64,000 nt of DNA from Macrostomum lignano (GCA_002269645.1 NIVC01001341.1:62001-126000), one strand, 5' to 3'. Numbered from the stretch's first letter, positions 32,686 through 47,716 are shown. The notes: a model not told the origin generated them from the letters alone. Translations and numbers: made by a program.

Positions 32686-33818
32686 TGTAGTGAGTCGCTA
32701 GTTTAGTTAGGCGCCGCACTAGTCAGCTGTTGCCCTCGCCTTCTCCCCAGGTTTCTGTCTGCCGCTGGGCAGTTGCCTGTCCCTCCCGCCTGTCCCTGGC
32801 CTGTCCTCTGCCCGTTTGTCTGTCTGTCTGTTTGTCCTCGTTTGCCCCTTTTGTCTCGCTTTCCCTTTTTGCAGTGCCCAGACAGCTTGGTCTGGCCTGC
32901 CTCTGTTTCGTTCTCTGTCAGGCATCTCCAAATTTGGAGTGCCTTCCTGTTTTCCGGTCCCACGGTCACGAGTGCCTTCACTTGTGGGCCTTTTCCCCTT
33001 GTCATGTGAGTCAGTCACATGACAAGGCCCTCTTCCTTCTTTAGTCCAAAGTGCAATGATTTCATCATTGTACGCTGGGCTCGTGTTTATGGGGAGATCA
33101 CGTGCGCCCGGACCCCCCCTTGCCTCCTCTGAGGCAGGGCCCGCTTGTTTGTTGCTAAAAATAGCAACAGAGTCACTTATGACTCTCAGCGGGGGCCTTT
33201 CGTGCTATGGTGCAATCGATCCTCCCTATAAATGCAGCCCCTCTCCTGGCTTGGCTCAGACAAGCCTTTCTTTCCTTCCGTTAACCGGCCCTTCCGTTTC
33301 AGCCTCTCGTTTCTGCGTTTTCAGCGTTCCTACCGTTCCTCGCGTTCCTAGCTTTCCAAGCTTTCCTAGCGTTCCTTCCGTTTCGTTTCTAGCGAACTCT
33401 AAGTTGTGTGCCAAGTTGACGCTTAAGTTGAACTCCAAGACTCCCGACTTTGCGCGTGACTGCCTCTGGCTCTGATTGTTCCTGCTATCAATTAGCAGGC
33501 CAGCTCGGATCGCCCGAAGCTAGCACTTTCGCTCTCACCCCGCACCAGCCCGGCAGGGACTGCTGACGGTGGGCACCTCTGCGCGAGAACTGCTAAATCT
33601 GCGCGAAGTGCGAGTCTCTTTCTCTCGTCTTAGTTATTTGCTTCTACGAGCTCAGCACCTCACCGAAGGCTGCGACTCTGCGAAGCTGGTGGCAGCACTA
33701 CCAACGCTACTAGATCAACCCGGAGACTTCCCAGAGGAGCTCAAGCAACTGTACTTCACCGGGGCAGCGTTCCTATTGAAGGCCTCTAGACAACCACAGG
33801 CAAGACACCTGTACTTCA
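32686..33818 (+). repeat. 5' LTR (1133 bp)
   Basis: Starts TGTAGTGAG, ends GTACTTCA; TATAAAT at 33227-33233. Confidence 0.97.
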
Positions 33819-33819
33819 T

Positions 33820-33841
33820 TGGTGGCAGCGGTGGGATTCGA
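33820..33841 (+). promoter_or_regulatory. Primer binding site complementary to tRNA-Leu 3' end
   Basis: TGGTGGCAGCGGTGGGATTCGA is the reverse complement of TCGAATCCCACCGCTGCCACCA, the 3' end of eukaryotic tRNA-Leu(AAG/TAG) as I recall it. Confidence 0.85.
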
Positions 33842-33950
33842 CGAGTCAACGACACGACTATCTGGTATTCGACAAGTCAAGATTCGACTACTACTACACC
33901 CAAGACAACCGCTCTTTCGAGTAAGAATTCGGCTATTCTACTAATTTGAA

Positions 33951-35120
33951 ATGTTTAACGAGAGAGAAGAGAGCCGGTGCAGCAGCCGGCTGGATCAGCA
34001 CATCAGCAGTTCGAGACCTGCAGCAGCATCGGCTGCCGCAGCAGCAGCGGTCAACGACCTTGGTCAGCAGATGCCGCGGCGAAGTGCGAGAAGCGAAGTG
34101 TCCGAAGACCCGCCAGACGAGCTTCTGCCAGGTTTGGACGACCTCGGCCAGAACATCAGGCCCCAGGATGTGAGAACGATGATGGCAGCTCTGCAGCAGC
34201 AGATGGAGCGGCCGGTAAGCAAATCTGTTAAGATTGTAAAGTACACGCCCAGCCAGGACATCCACGTCTGGCTCGCCGCGTTCGAGCAGCGCTGCGAGAT
34301 GGAGCGTATCGAAGACCCGATCGAGATGAAGCAGCACCTCGTTGCGAGTCTAGATCTGGCAACCGCTTACCCGGCTCTGCTCAGTATGCACCTCCCACGC
34401 TATGCTGGCTACGAGGAGGTCAGGCAGCGACTGATCGAGAGATTCGCCCGCCACGGTGGCGCGGATGAATATCGAGAGCTGCTGAGGCGCCGTCAGCAAG
34501 GCAAGAATGAGTCAGCAGAAGAGTACGCTGATGCCCTGCGCACCTTGGGAGAGCGAGCGTACCCTCGAATGCACCCTGAGGATCGAGAGCGGGAGCTGGC
34601 TGATCAGTTCCTAGCTGGCATCAGGACGACACCAGATCTGCGCGAGCGGCTCTATTGGGTCCGCCCGAACAATCTGCTGGCCGCTATTCGAGAACTCCAT
34701 CGTCTGGAAGGCGCCAAGGAACTGGCGCAGCGCTCTGCTCAACCCCCGGTTCGCATGCTGAACGGGGAGCGCGACGGTGACCCGACGCCCGACGCCACCG
34801 CTCAAGCTCTCCTAGCTCTGACTGATCTGCTAGAGAAACAGCAGCGACTGCTAGACAACCTGGTGCAGCGTGACCAGCAGCAGAAAACGAGTCCGCCGGC
34901 GAAAGCCATGATCTGCTATGGCTGTGGTCAGCCTGGTCATCGCAATGCACAGTGCCCGTTACGCCAGAACCAGGGAAACGGCGAGACGGAGAGCGCCCAC
35001 GGCAACGCCCTCCGCAGAGCCCAAGCCCCGGCTACTTGGCAGACTCCGAACGCTCACCAGAAGAAGAGGATGTCGGCTGCGCAGACGCCAATGCCCAGTC
35101 CGACAGTCGCTCATCAGTAA
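33951..35120 (+). CDS. gag: Gag (389 aa) with CCHC zinc knuckle
   Basis: CYGCGQPGHRNAQC = CX2CX4HX4C; retrotransposon capsid-like WLAAFEQ region. Confidence 0.93.
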   Translation: MFNEREESRCSSRLDQHISSSRPAAASAAAAAAVNDLGQQMPRRSARSEVSEDPPDELLPGLDDLGQNIRPQDVRTMMAALQQQMERPVSKSVKIVKYTPSQDIHVWLAAFEQRCEMERIEDPIEMKQHLVASLDLATAYPALLSMHLPRYAGYEEVRQRLIERFARHGGADEYRELLRRRQQGKNESAEEYADALRTLGERAYPRMHPEDRERELADQFLAGIRTTPDLRERLYWVRPNNLLAAIRELHRLEGAKELAQRSAQPPVRMLNGERDGDPTPDATAQALLALTDLLEKQQRLLDNLVQRDQQQKTSPPAKAMICYGCGQPGHRNAQCPLRQNQGNGETESAHGNALRRAQAPATWQTPNAHQKKRMSAAQTPMPSPTVAHQ

Positions 35121-35860
35121 GTGAGGCTGAGTGCGGAGGTTTCGTGGACACCTCCGATGATAAAAAAATCCATGCGCGTGAGGCTGATCCGTACGTCACC
35201 GGCCGATTGGCGGGCCGAGAAGTCCCTTTCCTACTAGACAGCGGCAGTCGGAAAAACTTTCTTGGAGCGTCGACCTGGGCCAATGTTAGACGTCGGATGC
35301 CTCGTTGTATCATATCGCATGCTATCCCGGATTGCGTGACCATGTACGACGGTACGCAGCTACCCCTTGCGTGTAAGGTGATCATCCCGGTGGAGTTCGG
35401 TGATGTCGTCGCGGACACCGAATTCCTGGTCACGGTCACCGATTGTGAAAATTTGCTTGGTATTAATTTCATGCGTGAACACTGCCAGAACTTGGACTTT
35501 GCTCAAGGAATGTTAAAGTTCAACAATGGCGCGTGCATTCCCGTTCGCTATTCGCGCCGTGAGCTTCAATCATGCCGGGTGTACACCTCCGAGAAGTGCA
35601 CTCTGCCGCCGAGAAGTTCAGCGCTGTTGGCCGTCCAGTTGGATGTCGGCCACCCCGAGAACCGAGGATCGCCATCAATCGTCGAGCTGGTGAAGTCGAG
35701 ACTGCACCCCAGCTGCAACACTCTGGAAGCAGCTCCAGCTCTGATGACGATGCCTGAAGGTCGAGGCTACATCGAGGTGTCAACACTGCTGACTGCGAGG
35801 TGTTCCTGCAGTCGGGCATCCGCGTTGGTGTTGCGACACCACTTAGAACTGCCGACCTGA
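34952..35860 (+). CDS. pol: Pol part 1: aspartic protease
   Basis: FLLDSGS catalytic motif and LLGINF. Confidence 0.9.
   Translation: MPVTPEPGKRRDGERPRQRPPQSPSPGYLADSERSPEEEDVGCADANAQSDSRSSVSEAECGGFVDTSDDKKIHAREADPYVTGRLAGREVPFLLDSGSRKNFLGASTWANVRRRMPRCIISHAIPDCVTMYDGTQLPLACKVIIPVEFGDVVADTEFLVTVTDCENLLGINFMREHCQNLDFAQGMLKFNNGACIPVRYSRRELQSCRVYTSEKCTLPPRSSALLAVQLDVGHPENRGSPSIVELVKSRLHPSCNTLEAAPALMTMPEGRGYIEVSTLLTARCSCSRASALVLRHHLELPT
34973..35014 (+). promoter_or_regulatory. Putative -1 programmed ribosomal frameshift signal (gag to pol)
   Basis: G GGA AAC heptamer in gag frame at 34973-34979, 7-nt spacer, 9-bp stem CGGAGAGCG/CGCCCTCCG with one mismatch; pol is in the -1 frame. Confidence 0.8.
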
Positions 35861-38622
35861 TGTACCTGGAAGAGACGCCGGAACCTGAAGTGCGACATTT
35901 GCCAAGGAGCCCTGAAGAGTCCAGCACAGCTTGGCTAGAGGAAGTCGAGATCAACAGCGAGCTGTCCGAAGATCAACGACAGAGAGTGCGAGATCTACTA
36001 GTTGAGTGTCAAGCAGCCTTCTCGAAGCACCTGCTAGACGCTGGCCTGACACACCTGGTGACCCACGAGATCATCCTGAAGGATCGGACACCAGTTGCGC
36101 TACCACCGCGCAGGATCCCGCCTCATCTGAAGGACAAGCTAGACGCCCTGCTAAACGAGATGCTGGCGAAGCACATCATTCGCCCGGCTTATTCTAGCTA
36201 CAACTCGCCAATGCTGATAGTGCCCAAGAAGGACGGCAACATCAGGCTGGTGCATGACTTCAGAGCTCTCAACGACAAGTGTGTGTACCACCCGTACCCG
36301 CTGCCGCACATTCAGGAGACCTTCGCGAAGCTGCGTGGTGCCCAGTGGTACTCTAGCTTGGATCTCGCTCAAGGATTCTGGCAGATCCCGCTGCGCGACT
36401 GCGATCAGCACCTGACGGCGTTCTCTGTGATTGACCGCGGACAATTCTGTTTCAATGTTCTACCGATGGGTCTCCACGATAGTCCAGGCAGCTTTCAGCG
36501 TTGCATCAATAAGCTCCTGGACGGCCTGACGCCAAAGACTGCGCTTGGCTACATGGATGACATCGTGGTGCACTCTGTGACCTTCGAGGAGCAGCTGGAC
36601 AACCTGCGGACTGTACTCCAGCGGATTATCGCAGCCAACCTCAAGGTCAAGCCGAAGAAGTGCCATTTGTTCCTCAAGGAGCTGCATTATCTAGGCCACG
36701 TCGTGACTCCCGACGGCCTGAAGACCTGTGAGGACAAGATTGCGCAGATCCGTGATTGGCCCGTGCCACAGTCCGTTACTCAACTGAGACAATTCCTAGG
36801 CCTCGCCAATTACTACCACAAGTTTGTCAACGGCTACGCTGGATTTGCTGCGCCGCTACATGCCCTGACTCGAAAGGACATCGGCAGCCTGCGGCAGCAT
36901 TGGACTGATGAGCACCAGGTAGCGTTCGACACGTTGAAGAAGAAGTTGTGTTCGACTGAAGTTCTCGCTCTGCCTGAGTTTAACTCAGATCCTAATGTGA
37001 AGTTTGTCCTAGACACGGATGCCTCAGACATTCGCATAGGCGCTTGTCTTGGACAACGGCAATCCGACGGCGTCGAGCGCCCAATTGCATTCTTTAGCCG
37101 GAAGCTTCGTGATCCTGAGAAGCGCTACACGGTCACGAAGAAAGAGCTGCTTGCAATCGTGGACGCGATGCGACATTTCCGTCATTATTTAATCGGCAAG
37201 AAGTTTGAAGTTCGTTCTGACCATCGGGCCTTGCTGTGGCTGCTGAACCAGACGCAGGTCACAGGCATCTTGGGCCGTTGGATTGAGCGATTAAGCGAGT
37301 TCCGCTTCCAGCTTCACCATCGCAAAGGCAAGGACCACGCCAACGCTGACGCCCTGTCAAGACGCCCGGAGACACCACCGGTTGACTTCGAACATGGCCG
37401 ACTGCTGGAGCACCCCGGTTCTGCAGCCCGACCCGGTGATGACACCAGCCTGGAGCCGGAATTGGACACCACACGTGAGGCCACTGCGAGAGCAGCCCGC
37501 ACGAAGAAGGTCCACACTCGCAACAAGGAGGCCGAAACTGCCCTGGCCGAAGACCTGGAGGCCACTGCGCCAGCAGTCCTTCAGCACGACGACCATCGCT
37601 GCAGTCAACGCCTGGAGACCGGTTTGGACACCAACCCGGAGGCCACTGACACCTCAGCCCTCCGCAGCGACGCCCACGCCGACTGCCGTTACTTGGAGAT
37701 TCGCCCGGACAAACCCTCGGAGGCCACTGCTGACGTAGACCTCCTTGATGATGTCCAAGACTGCGGGTCTCGGAATCTGGAGACGCCCATGGACCACGAC
37801 TCAGAGGCCACTGAACAAGCAGCCCTTCTGATGACAGCCCACAACGCGAATCCAGACCAGCAATGTAAGTTCAACTCCCCGGAGTTTTGCGCTGAGAGTT
37901 CTCGCCGTGTTGACAGAGGCCATACTCTCGCGACGGCTGCAAGGTCAACGCTCTGTCCCCCGAGCCGACAGACAGCTGCTCATCGCCTGTGCGGAAAGTC
38001 GAGTCCCCCTTTGCGACACCGCCCAGTGCTGGAGAAGACTCACCCAATGACGACGATGATCGAGCCGACGGCTACGGCTGCCTGCGACGAGGCGTGCTTC
38101 ACGTGTTGCGTCTCGCCCTACAGCCAAGAGTCGCCTGGGCTGTGCAGTGGAGGCAAGTGCACTGCTCCAGCTGCGGAAATTCCTGTCAAGAGAGCGACGA
38201 TGAGAACTTCGAAACGAGATCAGCGATCGTACGCCGACGTTGTGAGACAAAGTCCCTCGGAGCGACCTAATCCTGACGCCGACAAGACGGAGTCGCGTGA
38301 TCAACTGCGAGCCACAGAAGCGGAGACTGAGGAAATCCGGAACCCTCAGCCATGCCGCGCCGTGCTCACTGATTTTCTGAGGATGCCGATGACGCGGCAA
38401 CAGTTTGTCGACGCGCAGCGCGCCGACCGAGCAATCAGCTACGTGCTCAACTTGGTCGAGAACAAAGCCCTGAAGCCTGAGTTCGACGCCCGGTTGCGAC
38501 TGACGAAGGAGCAGCGGAATCTGCTCGGATATTATGATAATCTGCGAGAGGACAACGGCCTGCTGATGATCGATCTGACTGATGGCCAGCAGCCCCGAAG
38601 GTTGTCCTGCCCGAAGCTCTAG
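35800..38622 (+). CDS. pol: Pol part 2: reverse transcriptase, RNase H and long spacer
   Basis: YNSPM, LDLAQGFWQI, LPMGL, YMDD, YLGH, VLDTDASD, SDHRAL, ANADALSR. Confidence 0.96.
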   Translation: MFLQSGIRVGVATPLRTADLMYLEETPEPEVRHLPRSPEESSTAWLEEVEINSELSEDQRQRVRDLLVECQAAFSKHLLDAGLTHLVTHEIILKDRTPVALPPRRIPPHLKDKLDALLNEMLAKHIIRPAYSSYNSPMLIVPKKDGNIRLVHDFRALNDKCVYHPYPLPHIQETFAKLRGAQWYSSLDLAQGFWQIPLRDCDQHLTAFSVIDRGQFCFNVLPMGLHDSPGSFQRCINKLLDGLTPKTALGYMDDIVVHSVTFEEQLDNLRTVLQRIIAANLKVKPKKCHLFLKELHYLGHVVTPDGLKTCEDKIAQIRDWPVPQSVTQLRQFLGLANYYHKFVNGYAGFAAPLHALTRKDIGSLRQHWTDEHQVAFDTLKKKLCSTEVLALPEFNSDPNVKFVLDTDASDIRIGACLGQRQSDGVERPIAFFSRKLRDPEKRYTVTKKELLAIVDAMRHFRHYLIGKKFEVRSDHRALLWLLNQTQVTGILGRWIERLSEFRFQLHHRKGKDHANADALSRRPETPPVDFEHGRLLEHPGSAARPGDDTSLEPELDTTREATARAARTKKVHTRNKEAETALAEDLEATAPAVLQHDDHRCSQRLETGLDTNPEATDTSALRSDAHADCRYLEIRPDKPSEATADVDLLDDVQDCGSRNLETPMDHDSEATEQAALLMTAHNANPDQQCKFNSPEFCAESSRRVDRGHTLATAARSTLCPPSRQTAAHRLCGKSSPPLRHRPVLEKTHPMTTMIEPTATAACDEACFTCCVSPYSQESPGLCSGGKCTAPAAEIPVKRATMRTSKRDQRSYADVVRQSPSERPNPDADKTESRDQLRATEAETEEIRNPQPCRAVLTDFLRMPMTRQQFVDAQRADRAISYVLNLVENKALKPEFDARLRLTKEQRNLLGYYDNLREDNGLLMIDLTDGQQPRRLSCPKL

Positions 38623-38630
38623 ATGCCCAG

Positions 38631-39988
38631 GTGCTCCAGGAGCTCCACAGTTCGCCACTGTGTGGACACCTCGGCCAGACGAAGACGTTGAAGCGGCTAC
38701 GTGAACGATTCTGGAGGCCCGGATTAGCCCGTGTCACCGAGAACTTTATCAGTAAGTGCCGCGCCTGTCTTGAAAGTAAATCCCGAAGACGAGACCGAGT
38801 ACCTGTACAGAGCTTCCCTGTGTGCGAAGTTCTGGGAAGAGTACACTGCGACGTAGTAGGCCCAATTGCCCAGAAGAGCAAGAGCGGGAACCGCTACATC
38901 TTGACGCTATGCGACGCGACGTCGAAGTACCCGTTCGCCTATCCGATGAGGAACCAGAAAGCCAAGACGGTCATCAAGATCTGCAGGAGCGCTTGATCCC
39001 TGACTTTGGTGTACCATGCTGGATACACACTGATCAAGGAACCAATTTCACTGGCTCAGCTTTCAAGAAGTTCTGCGACCTGTTTGGCATCCGGCATACG
39101 ACGACAACACCGTACAACCCAGCTTCTAATGGGCAAGTCGAGAACCTCAACAAGCAGCTGAAGAGTGTCCTCACCTGCCTCCTCGAGCGCAACCATAACG
39201 ACTGGGACACCTTCCTCCCAGCCTGCTTGATGGCGCTCCGCTCTAGTGTACACCCGGTGACAGGTTTCACGCCTCACTACCTGGTGTTTGGTCGAGACTT
39301 TCGACTACCAATCGACAACGCGATCAAGAAGCTGCCGGAGTATGCCAATCTGCCTGACTATGTCAAGGACTTCCAGCGCCGTTTGGACGAAGCGACTGAG
39401 CTAGCCAAAGAACGCCTGCATCTGCATCAGCAACTGCGCGACGAGCACTATTCGAACCTGCCCGCTGCCAAGAAGCTCCAACCTGGTGACCTGGTTTTCC
39501 TCAACAACCCGGTGCTCGAACCGGATGAAGCGGCGAAGTTCCATCGACCTCGCAAAGCGCTGTACGAGGTAGTCGAACCCAAGGGCGAGGTCGTCTACAA
39601 GATTCGCCGTAGAGTGCCAAACCCGCGGGCCAGGCGCGACGAGCTAGTAGTCCATCGCCGGAATCTGCTACTCGTCCCTGATGCCGACTACCAGCTGACT
39701 TCGGATCCAGAAGTCGACCAGGCCAAGAAGCGCTGCAGGTTGACTGATGCCCCGGACGGTGCAGGACCCGCGACTCTGACACCGATTCCGGAGGACGATC
39801 CGGACGAGGACGATGATGATGATGACGCATGGCCGGCCTTCCGGTGGCGCTTCCGGCCGTTGGCGATCCCGGATGTGCAGCCAGGAGGTGGACCGGTCAC
39901 GACACCAGCGAACCAGCGCAGAAATGCACAAGCGTCCGCTCCACGTGAGCTCAAGCTCCTCGTCCGATGCGGAGCAAGGGCGGCCTAG
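38631..39988 (+). CDS. pol: Pol part 3: integrase (split by one frameshift near 38979)
   Basis: HHCC finger (LH..GH...CRAC) and D-D-E (CDVVGP, HTDQG, NGQVE). Confidence 0.93.
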
Positions 39989-41030
39989 CCGTAGCCGGCG
40001 CCGACCTGGTACCCCGGTCTCGCCAGAGACCATGGGGATCCCGCGGCGCCCGCTGGAGACAATTAACCGGAGACTCAGGGCTGAAGGCAACGGCTCGGCG
40101 AGGCCGACGCGCCAGGTTGATCGGCGCCCTCACCGTCGCACGCCGTCTCCCGAGCCCCAGAGGCGGAATGGGAGGCCACTCCGAACATCGGCACCCAGGC
40201 GAAGCCCTTCGCCCGTTCTGGAGAGCCATGCAGCTCAACACCCCGCTCGGGGTCAACGACACTCGCCCGAAGTCATCGACCTCACGCGCGACTCGCCATC
40301 GCCAGACGCGACTGCGCGGACACTCATGGTCGACCGGATCGCGGCCGCTTTGGCTTACGTGCAGCTGGAACAGCAGGTGATGCGGGGCTTGGCGGACATC
40401 CGCCTCCAAGTCCGCAATTCCCTTCCAGACATCGACGGGGCTCGGCCGGCGGCCCGTGAGCGAGTCGGGTCGGAGCACCACGGCAGGCCCGGCGGAACAG
40501 ATGAACGCGGAGGGGATCTCGACGACGCCAGGCATCCCGACGCGGCCCCGTCTCCGATGTCTTGGACCGATGACACTCAGGGAGCGGCCGCATGCTCCTC
40601 AGCTGTTTGGACCGACCTGGCCGCGTCGCTGCGCCGCACCCTGCCCAGGGCCCCGCCACCATCGCCCGAACGTCCGGCGGAAACGCTCGATACCGGCACT
40701 CAAACGGAGTCGCCAATACCGGAATACCGAGCTACCGTCATCGCTGCCGGCGCCAACCTGATAAGCGCTGTACTCGTCAGAGCGGCTCGGCAAGGCGGAG
40801 AAATCGTTGACCTCGGTGGCCCGATCTGGGCGGAGCTCCGTCAAACCACGGCCGAGGAGAGGAGCCGGTTATTCGCGGAGGCGGTCGGCCTGGCCGGCCC
40901 CGACCTGGAGCGGCCGAACCGGCCGTACGCTCTCCACCTGGCGGCCGTCCGCGTTGCCCGATTCATGGGCGGCGGGGAAGAAGACCTGCCGATGCTCTTG
41001 ATGACTCCGCGTCTGTGCTATTTTGACTGA
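39813..41030 (+). CDS. Extra ORF after integrase (up to 405 aa), non-Env, function unknown
   Basis: Long open frame between IN and the PPT; R/S/P-rich N-terminal half and helical-looking C-terminus; no signal peptide or TM segment. Confidence 0.7.
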   Translation: MMMMTHGRPSGGASGRWRSRMCSQEVDRSRHQRTSAEMHKRPLHVSSSSSSDAEQGRPSRSRRRPGTPVSPETMGIPRRPLETINRRLRAEGNGSARPTRQVDRRPHRRTPSPEPQRRNGRPLRTSAPRRSPSPVLESHAAQHPARGQRHSPEVIDLTRDSPSPDATARTLMVDRIAAALAYVQLEQQVMRGLADIRLQVRNSLPDIDGARPAARERVGSEHHGRPGGTDERGGDLDDARHPDAAPSPMSWTDDTQGAAACSSAVWTDLAASLRRTLPRAPPPSPERPAETLDTGTQTESPIPEYRATVIAAGANLISAVLVRAARQGGEIVDLGGPIWAELRQTTAEERSRLFAEAVGLAGPDLERPNRPYALHLAAVRVARFMGGGEEDLPMLLMTPRLCYFD

Positions 41031-41420
41031 TTGGCGGCCGTACGCTGATGTACGCCCTGTTGACAATGAAGTTGCCCCGTTTGCCGCGCTAGTTAAGCGC
41101 CCTTATGCAGGAATTTTAAGCCGGTTGGCTTGTGTATTCAGGTATCGCCCGCGCAATATTTAGGCGCCATTTCTAGGGTGGGCCGGCGCCCCCACACCAA
41201 ATTCGAGCACTAATTTTGCGGGCTGGAGCACGAGGAATAGTTAGGCGCAGGCTATTAGCGGGTTGGCGCCCCGCGGTATCAGGCCACTATCTTTACGACC
41301 TGGCCAGTCGCGCAATTTCACGAGCGCATTTGAAATTTTGTGTGTTTTCTTTTGTCAGTAAATTCACGTTTACTTTGTTTTAAATAAAGCGCGCGCCGCT
41401 TCACTCCGCCTCTTTATTTG

Positions 41421-41431
41421 AACGGGGAGAG
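41421..41431 (+). promoter_or_regulatory. Polypurine tract
   Basis: aacggggagag immediately before the 3' LTR. Confidence 0.85.
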
Positions 41432-42563
41432 TGTAGTGAGTCGCTAGTTTAGTTAGGCGCCGCACTAGTCAGCTGTTGCCCTCGCCTTCTCCCCAGGTTT
41501 CTGTCTGCCGCTGGGCAGTTGCCTGTCCCTCCCGCCTGTCCCTGGCCTGTCCTCTGCCCGTTTGTCTGTCTGTCTGTTTGTCCTCGTTTGCCCCTTTTGT
41601 CTCGCTTTCCCTTTTTGCAGTGCCCAGACAGCTTGGTCTGGCCTGCCTCTGTTTCGTTCTCTGTCAGGCATCTCCAAATTTGGAGTGCCTTCCTGTTTTC
41701 CGGTCCCACGGTCACGAGTGCCTTCACTTGTGGGCCTTTTCCCCTTGTCATGTGAGTCAGTCACATGACAAGGCCCTCTTCCTTCTTTAGTCCAAAGTGC
41801 AATGATTTCATCATTGTACGCTGGGCTCGTGTTTATGGGGAGATCACGTGCGCCCGGACCCCCCCCTTGCCTCCTCTGAGGCAGGGCCCGCTTGTTTGTT
41901 GCTAAAAATAGCAACAGAGTCACTTATGACTCTCAGCGGGGGCCTTTCGTGCTATGGTGCAATCGATCCTCCCTATAAATGCAGCCCCTCTCCTGGCTTG
42001 GCTCAGACAAGCCTTTCTTTCCTTCCGTTAACCGGCCCTTCCGTTTCAGCCTCTCGTTTCTGCGTTTTCAGCGTTCCTACCGTTCCTCGCGTTCCTAGCT
42101 TTCCAAGCTTTCCTAGCGTTCCTTCCGTTTCGTTTCTAGCGAACTCTAAGTTGTGTGCCAAGTTGACGCTTAAGTTGAACTCCAAGACTCCCGACTTTGC
42201 GCGTGACTGCCTCTGGCTCTGATTGTTCCTGCTATCAATTAGCAGGCCAGCTCGGATCGCCCGAAGCTAGCACTTTCGCTCTCACCCCGCACCAGCCCGG
42301 CAGGGACTGCTGACGGTGGGCACCTCTGCGCGAGAACTGCTAAATCTGCGCGAAGTGCGAGTCTCTTTCTCTCGTCTTAGTTATTTGCTTCTACGAGCTC
42401 AGCACCTCACCGAAGGCTGCGACTCTGCGAAGCTGGTGGCAGCACTACCAACGCTACTAGATCAACCCGGAGACTTCCCAGAGGAGCTCAAGCAACTGTA
42501 CTTCACCGGGGCAGCGTTCCTATTGAAGGCCTCTAGACAACCACAGGCAAGACCTGTACTTCA
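41432..42563 (+). repeat. 3' LTR (1132 bp)
   Basis: By eye differs from the 5' LTR only by +1 C in a C-run and a 2-bp ac deletion; followed by TSD CATT. Confidence 0.97.
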
Positions 42564-43407: not shown

Positions 43408-46400
43408 ATGTCTTCATACCCTGCTTTTCTATCACCGCCTCGTCTATGTCACCTAAAAAAGTGGACAACATTCGCCGGTTATGGATTCAACCTGCACGCT
43501 GAAAAAGGCAAAGCTGGCCAGTATATTGGGAAAGTTGATCCAGACTCTCCTGCTGAACATGGCGGTCTGAAAACAAAGGACTATCTGGTTGAAGTAAACA
43601 GTGTCAACGTTGGTAAGTACTAAAATTGGTCTAAATCATTAGAAAAATTATTTAGCAAATTTACTTGACTTATTTTTTTTCAAATGGGTATTACTATTAG
43701 TAATTAGTTGGATCATTTTCATATTTGTAAAGGCAATTGTTAGTGATATTTGTGGTAAATAGCTAGTTTTATTACTATGTACTGCAAATAGTTGAAGGAG
43801 TAAACTAAATTATTTCAAAGGGCTTTGCTTGGCTTGTTTCCTTTTTATTAAAACATAATTTAAATATTATTTACTTTTATGAGTTGCTTTGCATAAACTA
43901 CTTTAAAATGCATCTAGCTGTGTAGATGTTTTTTTAACTAAATTATTTTCTAAATAAGAACTATAATTATATTTTACTTAACTTAAAATTACTATGCGTT
44001 TCTGAATGCTATTAAGAGTTTTGTTATATTTTATATTGTATTTAAAGTGCTAAAATTTTAATTGTGAAAAATATATAACACTTTACAGATATTTATAAAT
44101 TATAAAATACTACAATAAAAACTGTTTTTCTACAGTTCCATCAAGAACTCATCACATGCATTCTAATTTCAGAGGATCTCTCCCACCAAAAGGTAGTGGA
44201 AATAGTCAAGGAAATGCCCAACTCAGTCACAATGCTAGTTGTGGACTATGAAGCCTACAAGCACTGCAGGGAGAATGGCGTCTCCATCAATTCTAGCATG
44301 CCTGAAGTAGTTTCTTTCACTACGCCAGACAGTCAGCCATCTGCCACTGCTGCTGGCGTTGACGAGAAACAAGAGAAACCAATTGAATCAGTGGTAAGAA
44401 GTTTTGTTATAATGTAATGCTCAAATTTTATTGTTTATAAACCATACATAAATGTGATTGGTGTATTCGTTACATAGCTTCAAATGTTAGACACAATCCT
44501 TATATAATATGACATGTTAGAAATCATTTAGCTACATATCGATATTTCATGGAAAGTATTAATTTGATAAGATAAGATTGCGGCCAAGCTATCAGCAGGC
44601 ACAAACAAAAGCCCCCAACAATACACACACTAAGCCTACAATGATACGGAAGGACCTGACCACCGAAAGCCCCGTTGAGCCATCGACTGAATTTACTGAT
44701 CGTGCTCAAGAAGATGAAGATGAGAATGTTATGCCAGTAGATCAGGAAGTCATCGCCAACCCGCTAGCTGTAGAGGTAATTCGCAACTGACGGTAAAATC
44801 AATATTTATTTGTTTCATTTATCCGCTTTTACAACCTGCCAATAGCTAATCCGATAATCCAGCACGCTCTTTGTGCTTTAACGCAACTAATCTTTGAAGC
44901 TTTTCTCTTATTCTGGTCAGAAAATCCATAATCTTGAATAGGGGTGCATTTTTTCAGAGCAGGTCGATGAGCCGCCTGTTTGACTTCGGAAGCACGCTCT
45001 TTGCGTCTTTGTGCTGGGCTGCTGGCTGAGCTCAAAATTTAATTTTATGCGCCTGACTTTGCTGCGATCGAAGCAAAATGTTAAATGATTTTTATTTTTA
45101 AGCTAACCAATTTCCTGTTCTATAAGTGAATGAAACTTGATCAGGCTTCTGATGGAAGATTATGGCCATAGACATATTAAAGTCCGTCTCAGTCTTCAAC
45201 AAATAGCCAGAGTTCTGTCAGCTACCATAGACACTCAGCGACATATCTTTAAGTCGTAGATATAAGATCGGCACAGCATATCAAAAGATAAGCTTTGGGT
45301 CGGCCTCCTATTGAAAGCAATAACAATTTTTGCGCTAAAAATGAAACCTTTCCATCTCCACTGCGTATTTTTTTAGAACAAAACCTGTCTCCTAAAATTT
45401 TCCAAGAGGTTTCCCGTCTTGGAAAACATGCACTAATTTAGAAAATTGGTTTTTAAAAAAACCACCGATCATACGGCAAGAAAGAATAAGTTAAAATTTC
45501 ATAATGGAGAACCAATATTTGCCAATGCTAGTTTAACAAAAGATCCCTAGATCAGATATCTTTATCCCCAACAATGCTTTGCTCATTTACTTAACTACAG
45601 TTACCTCCTTTTCCGCTGGCCGCTAAATTTAAGCACTATGGGTCGGGGCTAACACCTTCTTGTGAGCATATTCACCATGCATATGCATATACCTAAGGCA
45701 ACATTGAGCAGTTTAGGGTTTCTTCCTCAGCTAAAAAACTTGCCCCCCCCCCAAAAAAAAATCGAAGTTGGATAGAATGCAAGACAGACCCGAGACGCGA
45801 CTAAGGATTACTTGTAGCTGTGTGCTCTTTTTGCCAATTCTTGACCAAACTTGATATTTGATCTGCGAAACTAAACCCGTATAGCCTTGGGCCTCTCGAC
45901 TCTCTTGAGTACTTATTGAGTGCAATGGCAGTTTCATACTCAGTTGCCTAAGCTGCCGAGTTTTCCTACGGGTATATAATATTGGAAAAGTAAAAACGCC
46001 TACAATGATCTAACTATTGAAGCTAAAATGCTTTTTGGCGTCTCTTCAAGGGCCTTCAATGCTCAGGAGAATGACTCATCTGTCTGATTCCCGATGCATG
46101 AGTTGCAGCACAAAATATTATTTAGCGTGCTTTAATTGAAGGGGCTGCAACCCTCAGGGGCGCCAATATTTGCTGGACGCCCCCTGTCTTTTGGTTGGCG
46201 CCCCTGTCTCTTGGTGGGCGCCCCTGTCTCTTGGTGGGCGCCCCTGTCTCTTGGTGGGTGCCTCTGTCTCTTGGTGGGCGCCCCTGTCTCTTGGTGGGTG
46301 CCTCTGTCTCTTGGTGGGCGCCCCTGTCTCTTGGTGGGCGCCCCTGTCTCTTGGTGGGCGCCCCTGTCTCCTGGTGCTCATCCATAACATTATACTCAAG

Positions 46401-47662
46401 TTCTATCTAACAGGTTTTGTGTTATTATAACAGCAGCGCTTAGCAACAAAATTGCCAATTTAAAGCAACTAAATTAGCCTACAGCCTGCGCTTTTTATCG
46501 CAATCATGACAGGCTTGTTAATCAAACAGTCAAATCTACATTGGCCTATTTGTGCAGGTAGCATAAATTAGTTTATAAAATCCAATTTAGCAATATATAC
46601 GTACATGTGAGTGTCGAGGGCAGACTAGTTTGGCGGTTGTATTATATTGCATTCTGAACGTTTGCGCAGAACTAACTAGCATTCTACACTAGCCGTCCCT
46701 GCTCTAGTCTCAAGTCTTGCATAATTAACTAACCAACGCTCTCATTAATTATGCATCCTAAAGTTGCCGAGTTAGCTCTTGATTAGAAAAAACACATAGC
46801 AGAGGGAAAGAGAGAAGAGGTGAGTTAGAAATGCGAAAAAGTTTTAAGCCGCAGTAAACAAGCACAAAATGGCTAGATTTTTTTGGTTTATTTTTTTGCT
46901 TCTAACTTTTCAACCGGCTAAAATGTTAGCAAACTATTTTTTGGCGACAGTCATTTTTATTAAAAGTGCAATTTGTTATTTTTTCGAAAAGATACCTTTA
47001 TGAGTGGACACCCCAGTAAGAAGCGGACACCCCAATAATGAGTGGACACCCCAGTAAGAAGCGGACACCCTAATAATGAGTGGACACCCCAGTAAGAATC
47101 GGAAACCCCAATAATGAGTGGACACCCCAGTAATGAGTGGACACCCCAGTAAGAATCGGACACCCTAATAATGAGTGGACACCCCAGTAAGAAGTGGACA
47201 CCCCAATAATGAGTGGACACCCAAATAAGAAGCGGACACCCCAATAATGAGTGGACACCCCAGTAAGAAGCGGACACCCTAATAATGAGTGGACACCCCA
47301 GTAAGAATTGGAAACCCCAATAATAAGTGGACACCCCAGTAAGAAGCGGACACCCCAGTAAGAAGCGGACACCCTAATAATGAGTGGACACCCCAGTAAG
47401 AATTGGAAACCCCAATAATGAGTGGACACCCCAGTAAGAAGCGGACACCCCAATAATGAGTGGACACCCAAATAAAAAGCGGACACCCCAATAATGAGTG
47501 GACACCCAAATAAGAAGTGGACACCCCAATAATGAGTGGACACCCCAGTAAGAAGTGGACACCCCAATAATGAGTGGACACCCCAGTAAGAAGCGGAAAC
47601 CCCAATAATGAGTGGACACCCCAGTAAGAAGTGGTAATGAGTTGCTTCGCTCCGATCACCCC

Positions 47663-47716
<54 letters not shown>

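What the first reader, a model, noticed from the sequence alone, without database searches (positions are those of the whole stretch)
39813..41030. Gypsy accessory ORF (or integrase extension) with SUMO-interacting-like and dynein LC8-binding-like motifs
Seen: in the position where errantiviruses carry env there is a 405-aa ORF with no signal peptide or TM segment. It contains RRTPSP/RRSPSP, PEVIDLT (40266-40286) and DTGTQTE (40689-40709). Known: VIDLT is the PIAS-type SIM consensus, xxTQT is the LC8/DYNLL1 ligand used by many viruses, and SUMO pathways act in piRNA-guided TE silencing. Inference: a host-interaction factor for nuclear transport, integration targeting or anti-silencing. It overlaps the IN end by 175 nt in the +1 frame and the first ATGs are only the alternate reading of an Asp (GAT) run. 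It may therefore start later, be spliced, or be fused to IN.
Basis: partly seen in the sequence, partly recalled or inferred. Interest (0 to 1): 0.7.

Follow-up and report, generated by a model that had tools for sequence, protein, structure and literature searches.

The report
Swappable spliced tail of retrotransposon integrase
In a flatworm jumping-gene family this 'extra gene' is the exchangeable tail of the integrase polyprotein, cut loose in this one copy by the exact loss of an intron; the tail keeps predicted SUMO- and LC8-binding motifs and is likely also made alone as a helper protein.

Summary
The ORF and motifs are real, but the 405-aa ORF with its +1 overlap is peculiar to this copy. 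Sister copies hold about 314 more bases at window 39916|39917, and 20 of 48 read one frame from the integrase end to this ORF's stop. The missing piece is a conserved GC-AG intron; three independent genomic events joined its donor exactly to an AG. The unit that matters starts at ATG 39924, 7 nt after the acceptor. It is a 350-470-aa cassette, 20-61% identical between subfamilies whose integrase cores are 95-100% identical, with the break in likeness at that ATG. It keeps an (I/V)DLT SUMO-binding motif (9 of 10 types), an LC8-type site, and a ~100-aa helical domain with no known relative outside Macrostomum lignano. Four public gene models start at the acceptor although their frames run on upstream, so the tail is likely also expressed alone, possibly by spliced-leader trans-splicing (not seen directly). 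Best guess: a Rev/CERV-like nuclear accessory factor; function untested.

The parts
32686..33818 (+). 5' LTR (TG...CA), 4-bp target-site duplication outside the element
   Evidence: 99.7% identical to the 3' LTR, 3 gap columns, no mismatch; flanks
33820..33837 (+). primer-binding-site-like stretch (starts TGG); tRNA identity not tested
   Evidence: sequence
33945..35120 (+). gag frame with zinc knuckle
   Evidence: zf-CCHC E=0.0014, below curated cut-off
34874..39988 (+). pol (protease, RT, RNase H, integrase), split in this copy into four ORFs: 34874-35860, 35758-38622, 38583-38996, 38780-39988
39916..39917 (+). exon junction: exact loss of a GC-AG intron (about 311-314 nt in other copies)
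39924..41030 (+). the tail cassette proper, 368 aa from the ATG 7 nt after the acceptor; C-terminal end of Pol in intron-holding copies
39924..40265 (+). Arg-rich, Ser/Thr-Pro-rich low-complexity region (18-22% Arg in the first 150 aa of all 10 types)
   Evidence: low-confidence model
40266..40286 (+). (I/V)DLT-type SUMO-interacting motif, predicted
   Evidence: 9 of 10 tail types; motif class in PMC4907222 passages
40428..40429 (+). second splice acceptor; used with the same donor in copy L014
40599..40667 (+). short Trp/Leu helix followed by PPx[ST]P
   Evidence: PPx[ST]P in 10 of 10 types; helix 57-70 of model; alignment
40689..40709 (+). LC8-type motif (Asp at -4, TQT anchor, Glu at +2), predicted
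40719..41027 (+). conserved all-helical C-terminal domain of about 100 aa, no known family
   Evidence: pLDDT mostly above 90
41420..41431 (+). polypurine tract
   Evidence: sequence
41432..42563 (+). 3' LTR

Best explanation
The ORF is the exchangeable C-terminal tail of this Ty3/Gypsy family's Pol polyprotein, set off by a conserved GC-AG intron that this copy has lost, and it is likely also made alone from an RNA starting at the intron's acceptor, as a predicted nuclear adaptor that would bind SUMO and LC8 and help unspliced element RNA survive and leave the nucleus. SHOWN: tail in frame with integrase in many copies; exact donor-to-AG joins in three independent genomic events; conserved acceptor and ATG; tails exchanged against a near-constant core, with the break at the ATG; purifying selection; conserved motifs and helical domain. 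INFERRED, about 0.9: the joins come from spliced RNA that was reverse-transcribed. INFERRED, about 0.7: a stand-alone tail mRNA exists. INFERRED, about 0.5: it is made by spliced-leader trans-splicing at the acceptor, the weak GC donor leaving the acceptor largely unpaired. INFERRED, about 0.6: SUMO and LC8 binding are real. INFERRED, about 0.35: the job is Rev/CERV-like (Arg-rich part on element RNA, LC8 dimerising it, SIM holding it at SUMO-rich sites of transcription). Removing the intron also ends integrase 9-68 codons past the junction, so splicing would choose between tailed and tail-less integrase.
For: Fusion: 20 of 48 intron-holding loci read one frame from donor to C-terminal domain and 33 of 48 through the acceptor; three long loci carry protease-to-tail in one frame of 2139-2215 aa. 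Intron: 68 of 74 loci have the donor (67 GC, 1 GT); 60 of 63 acceptors fit [T/C]TNCAG; 60 of 63 have ATG 7 nt later; length 310-318 nt in 61 of 63. 108 genomic sites match the unspliced donor pattern. Of 11 sites where the donor-side 16-mer is followed by another base, 4 belong to the family and all 4 are exact donor-to-AG joins: the window, a pair in a distant subfamily at the same acceptor, and one copy at a second acceptor. Stand-alone RNA: 4 of 4 public proteins of this family start within -2 to +1 codons of the ATG although 360-1228 codons are open upstream; P0004 starts at the first full codon after the acceptor. PMC5730564 (passages) says such models were cut at mapped spliced-leader sites. 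PMC8629364 (passages) gives [T/C]TNCAG as the top trans-splice acceptor motif. Acceptor motif plus ATG at that spacing occurs once in a 9.9-kb copy. Exchange: types A/B have core dS 0.03 and tail dS 1.6, dN 0.5; likeness drops at the ATG in 6 of 6 close pairs. Motifs: SIM-like 9 of 10 (0.04 expected by shuffling), TQT 6 of 10 (0.6 expected; the other four have CQT, CQA or IQT at the matching place), PPx[ST]P 10 of 10. The LC8-type site lies after the PPx[ST]P motif in types A-C and before it in D-I, which points to selection on the motif. Analogy: CERV of Cer1 (PMC10309623 sections 9 and 15; PMC3315495 passages).
Against: No spliced-leader-to-tail sequence was seen directly. The gene-model starts have a confound: the multi-copy core ends about 12 nt after the acceptor, so read mapping alone could start models near there, and P0003 starts one codon after the ATG. 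The leader ends in ATG, which would be out of frame with the tail and open a 9-68-codon upstream frame, so leaky scanning is needed. The donor and acceptor lie in Pol codons, so their conservation may partly be protein constraint. Motif patterns were written after seeing the sequences and the tails are related, so shuffle figures overstate significance. Type G and one further open 397-aa tail lack the (I/V)DLT motif; in 20 added loci, many decayed, the patterns found a SIM in 9 and an LC8-like site in 12. Many TQT peptides do not bind LC8 (PMC6607443 passages). Four copies keep the donor but have no acceptor or tail. 28 of 48 loci do not read through. Nothing here separates RNA export from anti-silencing or targeting.
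Confidence: 0.5

Rival explanations
1. The tail works only in cis as an integrase extension: LC8/dynein carries the pre-integration complex towards the nucleus, and the SIM and helical domain tether it to SUMO-marked chromatin, with different tails giving different targets. Splicing merely makes a tail-less integrase or dampens Pol.
For: In-frame fusion kept in all 9 types analysed. Cer1 capsids need dynein for normal accumulation (PMC3315495 passages). Integrase C-terminal targeting modules are known (chromodomains; recalled).
Against: Conserved ATG 7 nt after the acceptor with a purine at -3; four gene models start there; exchange breakpoints sit at the ATG, not at the end of the integrase fold; five near-identical copies share a 1-nt shift inside the intron that uncouples tail from integrase.
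Confidence: 0.22
2. The free tail is an anti-silencing factor: its SIM intercepts the SUMO step of piRNA-guided chromatin silencing at element loci, and its diversity reflects an arms race.
For: SIM kept in 9 of 10 types; piRNA silencing of transposons operates in M. lignano (PMC4604429 passages); a SUMO link to piRNA silencing is known in Drosophila (Ninova 2020, seen only as a reference title).
Against: Average dN/dS is about 0.2-0.6 in most pairs, with no sign of overall positive selection; types E and G share a 99% identical downstream LTR region with tails 31% identical, so tails do not track the promoter; two open tails lack the SIM pattern.
Confidence: 0.18
3. The stand-alone RNA comes from an internal promoter just upstream of the ATG, or from multi-exon cis-splicing out of the leader, not from trans-splicing; the reader's 405-aa form could be a minor cis-spliced isoform.
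For: Cis use of this donor and acceptor is recorded in genomic copies; the +1 frame from the Asp run to the donor is open with ATGs in 7 of 9 types; A/T-rich sequence precedes the acceptor.
Against: No genomic copy with a leader-to-acceptor join turned up among the loci compared; 2 of 9 types have no such ATG; P0004 starts exactly at the acceptor.
Confidence: 0.25
4. The tail is non-functional filler, the deletions are ordinary microhomology deletions and the motifs are chance.
For: The junction has a 3-nt overlap; much of the tail is low-complexity and GC-rich; tail-less copies exist.
Against: Three events share one left end at a donor consensus and end at two different AGs; dN is well below dS; a confidently folded domain and several motifs survive at 20-60% identity.
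Confidence: 0.03

Closest known systems
CERV of C. elegans Cer1 (PMC10309623: abstract, sections 9 and 15; PMC3315495: passages)
   Same: Ty3/Gypsy element; novel protein from a spliced, partly SL1-trans-spliced mRNA whose splice sites the genomic RNA must skip; very divergent between relatives; proline-directed phosphosite; no outside homolog
   Different: CERV shares exons with gag, has H/M/G domains and a Cys loop; the tail here lies after integrase, is also fused to Pol, carries SIM- and LC8-type motifs and is swapped as a cassette; no nematode protein matched
Errantivirus env ORF3 on a spliced subgenomic RNA (layout recalled)
   Same: Position between pol and 3' LTR; acceptor just before the ATG
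   Different: No signal peptide, no conserved membrane segment, no Env family hit; in frame with Pol
[quoted passage not shown]
   Same: Conserved extra coding capacity of unknown origin, some nuclear, proposed to act like retroviral accessory proteins
   Different: Mostly separate or antisense ORFs; no Pol fusion plus intron switch, SIM/LC8 motifs or cassette exchange in the passages seen
Integrase C-terminal targeting modules (chromovirus chromodomain, Ty5 targeting motif; recalled)
   Same: Extension after the integrase C-terminal domain carrying host-binding modules
   Different: No chromodomain hit; all-helical domain; own ATG and acceptor; many interchangeable versions
PIAS-type (I/V)DLT SIM (PMC4907222 passages) and LC8 TQT motif (PMC6607443 passages)
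   Same: Window motifs fit both descriptions (VIDLT; H-bonding residue at -4, TQT, acidic +2, no proline before the anchor)
   Different: Motif only; variants CQT/CQA were not found in the LC8 paper's main text for CQT (0 occurrences; CQA not searched)

Membership tests
Ty3/Gypsy LTR retrotransposon | Paired TG...CA LTRs, target-site duplication, PBS-like and polypurine tracts | tested here: met
Ty3/Gypsy LTR retrotransposon | gag, then protease-RT-RNase H-integrase order | tested here: met
   Pfam hits in that order
Named clade (Mag, CsRN1, Gmr1/Osvaldo, Mdg3/Micropia) | RT phylogeny with clade references | not tested
   No labelled references at hand; nearest RTs are M. lignano Pol proteins at 58% and 54%; supplement motif search found nothing
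Errantivirus Env | Signal peptide and conserved transmembrane anchor | tested here: not met
   hydropathy of 9 types; one borderline window falls in the predicted globular domain
Errantivirus Env | Env family or fusion-protein fold match | tested here: inconclusive
   no Pfam hit; no fold match, which cannot exclude
Errantivirus Env | Separate ORF3 after the pol stop | tested here: not met
   in frame with integrase in 20 of 48 loci
Chromovirus integrase | Chromodomain at the integrase C-terminus | tested here: not met
   no Chromo hit in 16 tail ends or window ORFs; model has helices only
CERV / Rev-like export factor | Sequence homology to CERV | tested here: not met
   profile of the C-terminal domain finds 3 proteins in 1.84 billion, all named M. 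lignano; only that domain and the last 200 aa were searched
CERV / Rev-like export factor | Encoded by a spliced subgenomic mRNA | tested here: inconclusive
   splice sites and intron-less genomic copies shown; gene models start at the acceptor; the mRNA itself not seen
CERV / Rev-like export factor | Nuclear, binds genomic RNA, needed for its export | not testable with these tools
   only Arg-rich composition
Spliced-leader trans-spliced gene | [T/C]TNCAG acceptor at the mRNA 5' end | tested here: met
   60 of 63 acceptors; motif from PMC8629364; it also fits cis acceptors
Spliced-leader trans-spliced gene | Leader sequence joined to the exon in RNA | tested here: inconclusive
   contig tables were cut and showed no leader-like loose end among the rows printed
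(I/V)DLT SIM | Motif in a disordered region, conserved | tested here: met
(I/V)DLT SIM | Binds SUMO | not tested
   needs an assay
LC8 ligand | TQT-type anchor with favourable flanks in a coil | tested here: met
   host LC8 genes present
LC8 ligand | Binds LC8 | not tested
   needs an assay

The most novel reading that the evidence does not exclude
The element uses the host's spliced-leader trans-splicing to cut a trans-acting SUMO/LC8-binding accessory protein out of the end of its own pol gene. The same subgenomic RNA, co-packaged and copied until its 5' end forces a template switch, would be what swaps tails between subfamilies, explaining why exchange points pile up at the acceptor. That would make one sequence an integrase tail, a free regulator and a self-shuffling cassette.
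Probability: 0.25. Interest if true: 0.8.

Novelty: new variant of a known kind. Interest (0 to 1): 0.62.

Why it matters
Accessory proteins of env-less LTR retrotransposons are rare and mostly untested; CERV is the main worked example I found. Here a large, recently active family (108 donor sites in the assembly) carries at least nine interchangeable versions of one such module on an almost constant core. That is a natural experiment showing which short motifs must be kept, and it comes with a new helical domain. The host is tractable (RNAi and transgenesis, PMC5730564), and tail-specific probes separate the subfamilies, so the links between retrotransposons, SUMO, LC8 and trans-splicing become directly testable. 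It also shows that intron-less genomic copies can create false 'ORF3' calls.

Tried and rejected
No RNA holder listed: no run was on record as RNA, so contig results are not used as evidence on expression. Eight run-layings (7 different runs; contigs only; tables cut) printed no 311/314-nt joint and no leader-like loose end. An 826-nt GC-AG skip was bridged in X2 and X7, but genomic copy L014 has the same join, so it is not independent. One X4 contig stops at the last base of the acceptor, which none of 13 near-identical genomic copies explains, while the X7 stop matches a subfamily branch exactly; one study only, so not counted. Fold searches gave no clear match: Foldseek PDB best E 1.7, viral best E 0.13, VIA best Z 6.0 at rmsd 4.7 over 109 residues. 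PDB sequence search, Pfam, ESM Atlas and a search of 95-350-aa proteins found nothing usable. The single-sequence model of the whole tail was poor (pLDDT 43). The generic SIM pattern is uninformative (8.6 of 10 expected by chance). Seven of 11 pattern hits were unrelated DNA and were dropped. The big deletion in L045/L047 and the 763-nt deletion in L011 do not end at AG and were rejected as splices. No host gene origin for the domain: the distant hits checked were element copies or remnants (two, L128 and L138, showed no pol match in the stretch fetched). Gene ids of P0002-P0004 were not found in paper texts or in readable supplements; supplements of PMC8629364 and PMC5946080 could not be read and may hold leader flags.

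Full report
Observation. The window holds a young Ty3/Gypsy element, 32686-42563, with LTRs 99.7% alike, a 4-bp target duplication, gag, and a pol split into four ORFs in this copy. It has no signal peptide and no conserved membrane segment.

The overlap is private to this copy. A DNA search of the own genome gave 75 matches, and the close copies all broke at window 39914-39916. Fifteen of 18 other loci examined hold 312-314 more bases there. In such copies the integrase frame can run straight into the 'ORF3': 20 of 48 loci read one frame from that point to the C-terminal domain and 33 of 48 past the acceptor. Three long loci carry protease to tail in one frame. In near-identical copies the breaks are mostly 1-nt indels, often in homopolymer runs, so some may be assembly errors. 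Loci may include duplicated or allelic copies, so counts are not independent events.

The missing piece is an intron. Of 74 loci, 68 have the donor (67 GC, 1 GT). Of 63 acceptors found, 60 fit [T/C]TNCAG and 60 are followed 7 nt later by ATG; 61 of 63 introns are 310-318 nt (probes allowed 4 mismatches). The unspliced donor pattern occurs 108 times. Eleven sites have the donor-side 16-mer followed by another base; 7 are unrelated DNA, and all 4 family copies are exact donor-to-AG joins: the window, L045/L047 (one event in a distant subfamily, same acceptor), and L014 (second acceptor, window 40429). I infer reverse transcription of spliced RNA.

The tail is a cassette. In 9 types with an unbroken natural frame, integrase cores are 95-100% identical, variable tail regions 20-61% and C-terminal domains 22-81%. 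Types A and B have core dS 0.03 but tail dS 1.6 and dN 0.5; E and I have domain dS 2.1 and dN 0.11 (simple pairwise counts, many saturated). Likeness falls at the ATG in 6 of 6 close pairs. The three main groups are the same in core and tail trees, so exchange or core homogenisation is mostly within groups. Types E and G share a 99% identical downstream region, so a second boundary lies before the 3' LTR. Average dN/dS gives no sign of positive selection.

What is kept. All 10 tails (9 types plus P0005) begin with an Arg- and Ser/Pro-rich region. Nine have an (I/V)DLT-type motif (0.04 expected by shuffling), 6 have TQT (0.6 expected) and the other 4 CQT, CQA or IQT, and 10 have PPx[ST]P. The patterns were chosen after viewing the sequences. 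In 20 added loci, many decayed, they found a SIM in 9 and an LC8-like site in 12; one of these loci encodes P0005, and one open 397-aa tail has no SIM match. The LC8-type site changes position relative to PPx[ST]P between groups. VIDLT is the PIAS1 SIM (PMC4907222, passages). The window's LC8 motif has the favoured flanks, but many TQT peptides do not bind (PMC6607443, passages). The last ~100 aa fold confidently as helices and match no family or structure. A profile search of 1.84 billion proteins found 3; with one cluster member they are four hypothetical proteins named Macrostomum lignano by their source, each encoded letter for letter in G000 loci, so the host is that species or a very close relative.

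Separate expression. All 4 public proteins start at the acceptor region although 360-1228 codons are open upstream: two at the ATG, one at the first full codon after the acceptor, one just after the ATG. PMC5730564 (passages) describes cutting transcription units at mapped leader sites, and PMC8629364 (passages) gives the matching acceptor motif and notes that an acceptor without an upstream donor is trans-spliced. This is indirect. Read mapping at the edge of the multi-copy core could also start models here, I could not see leader flags for these genes, and the leader's own ATG would be out of frame. An internal promoter or cis-splicing remains open.

Mechanism. I commit to dual use: Pol tail plus free nuclear adaptor acting like CERV or Rev. 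A protein made from processed RNA of an element whose genomic RNA must skip the same splice sites, Arg-rich and full of Ser/Thr-Pro sites, fits that logic (PMC10309623, abstract and sections 9 and 15; PMC3315495, passages). It is not a CERV homolog. Integrase tethering (0.22) and SUMO-linked anti-silencing (0.18; PMC4604429 passages) are live rivals that sequence cannot separate. Four tail-less copies and five copies sharing a shift inside the intron fit supply in trans, but also dispensability.

Novelty. Ten literature searches (listings seen) showed no description of this tail, intron or domain. PMC12801592 (first part of the text, passages, 5 supplements searched) has no occurrence of 'splic' or 'ORF' in its main text; its earlier classification paper was not seen. 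PMC7264820 and PMC13269885 were seen as passages; PMC5816591 and PMC5946080 were only queried for supplements. Extra ORFs, spliced accessory proteins and a trans-spliced retrotransposon mRNA (Cer1) are known, so this is a new variant of a known kind. The combination of Pol fusion, GC-AG switch, own ATG and cassette exchange with conserved host-binding motifs is what I did not find. Interest 0.62.

Noticed in passing
L003, L005, L006, L010, L013, inside the intron: Five near-identical copies share one 1-nt indel that uncouples tail from integrase; a contig of run X4 shows an indel at the same place, so it may be a real sub-lineage or a homopolymer error.
   Followed up: partly
L046, L048, L049, L050: Copies that keep integrase and donor but have unrelated, stop-rich sequence in place of acceptor and tail.
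   Followed up: partly
window 39720-39830 and the intron-coded segment of L002: The integrase extension before the cassette keeps a basic KK-R cluster, an acidic run and, within the intron, an R-x-x-R-x-R-[RK]-x-P-E-R-L motif across types; possible nuclear-import and chromatin contacts.
   Followed up: no
window about 37400-38500: A long low-complexity spacer of roughly 350 aa between RNase H and integrase in Pol, without Pfam hit.
   Followed up: no
window 32997-33027 and 41743-41773: A 31-nt near-palindrome in each LTR containing an AP-1-like word (label recalled).
   Followed up: no
L011: A 763-nt deletion in integrase begins at a GT donor-like site but does not end at AG.
   Followed up: partly
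L045, L047: Besides the intron, these copies lack everything from the end of the 5' LTR to mid-integrase; short non-autonomous copies with LTR pairs 96-97% alike.
   Followed up: partly
L135, L136, L084: Remnant tails next to an inserted RT/RNase H element on the other strand; an LTR-like piece nested inside pol in L084.
   Followed up: no
own genome, e.g. L115-L126: 110 matches to the dynein light chain family, 8 of them near-canonical single-exon LC8 genes.
   Followed up: no
window 44106-44417, 46141-46416, 46867-47700: A host exon-like frame resembling a PDZ domain end (recalled), and 20-nt and 19-nt tandem arrays.
   Followed up: no
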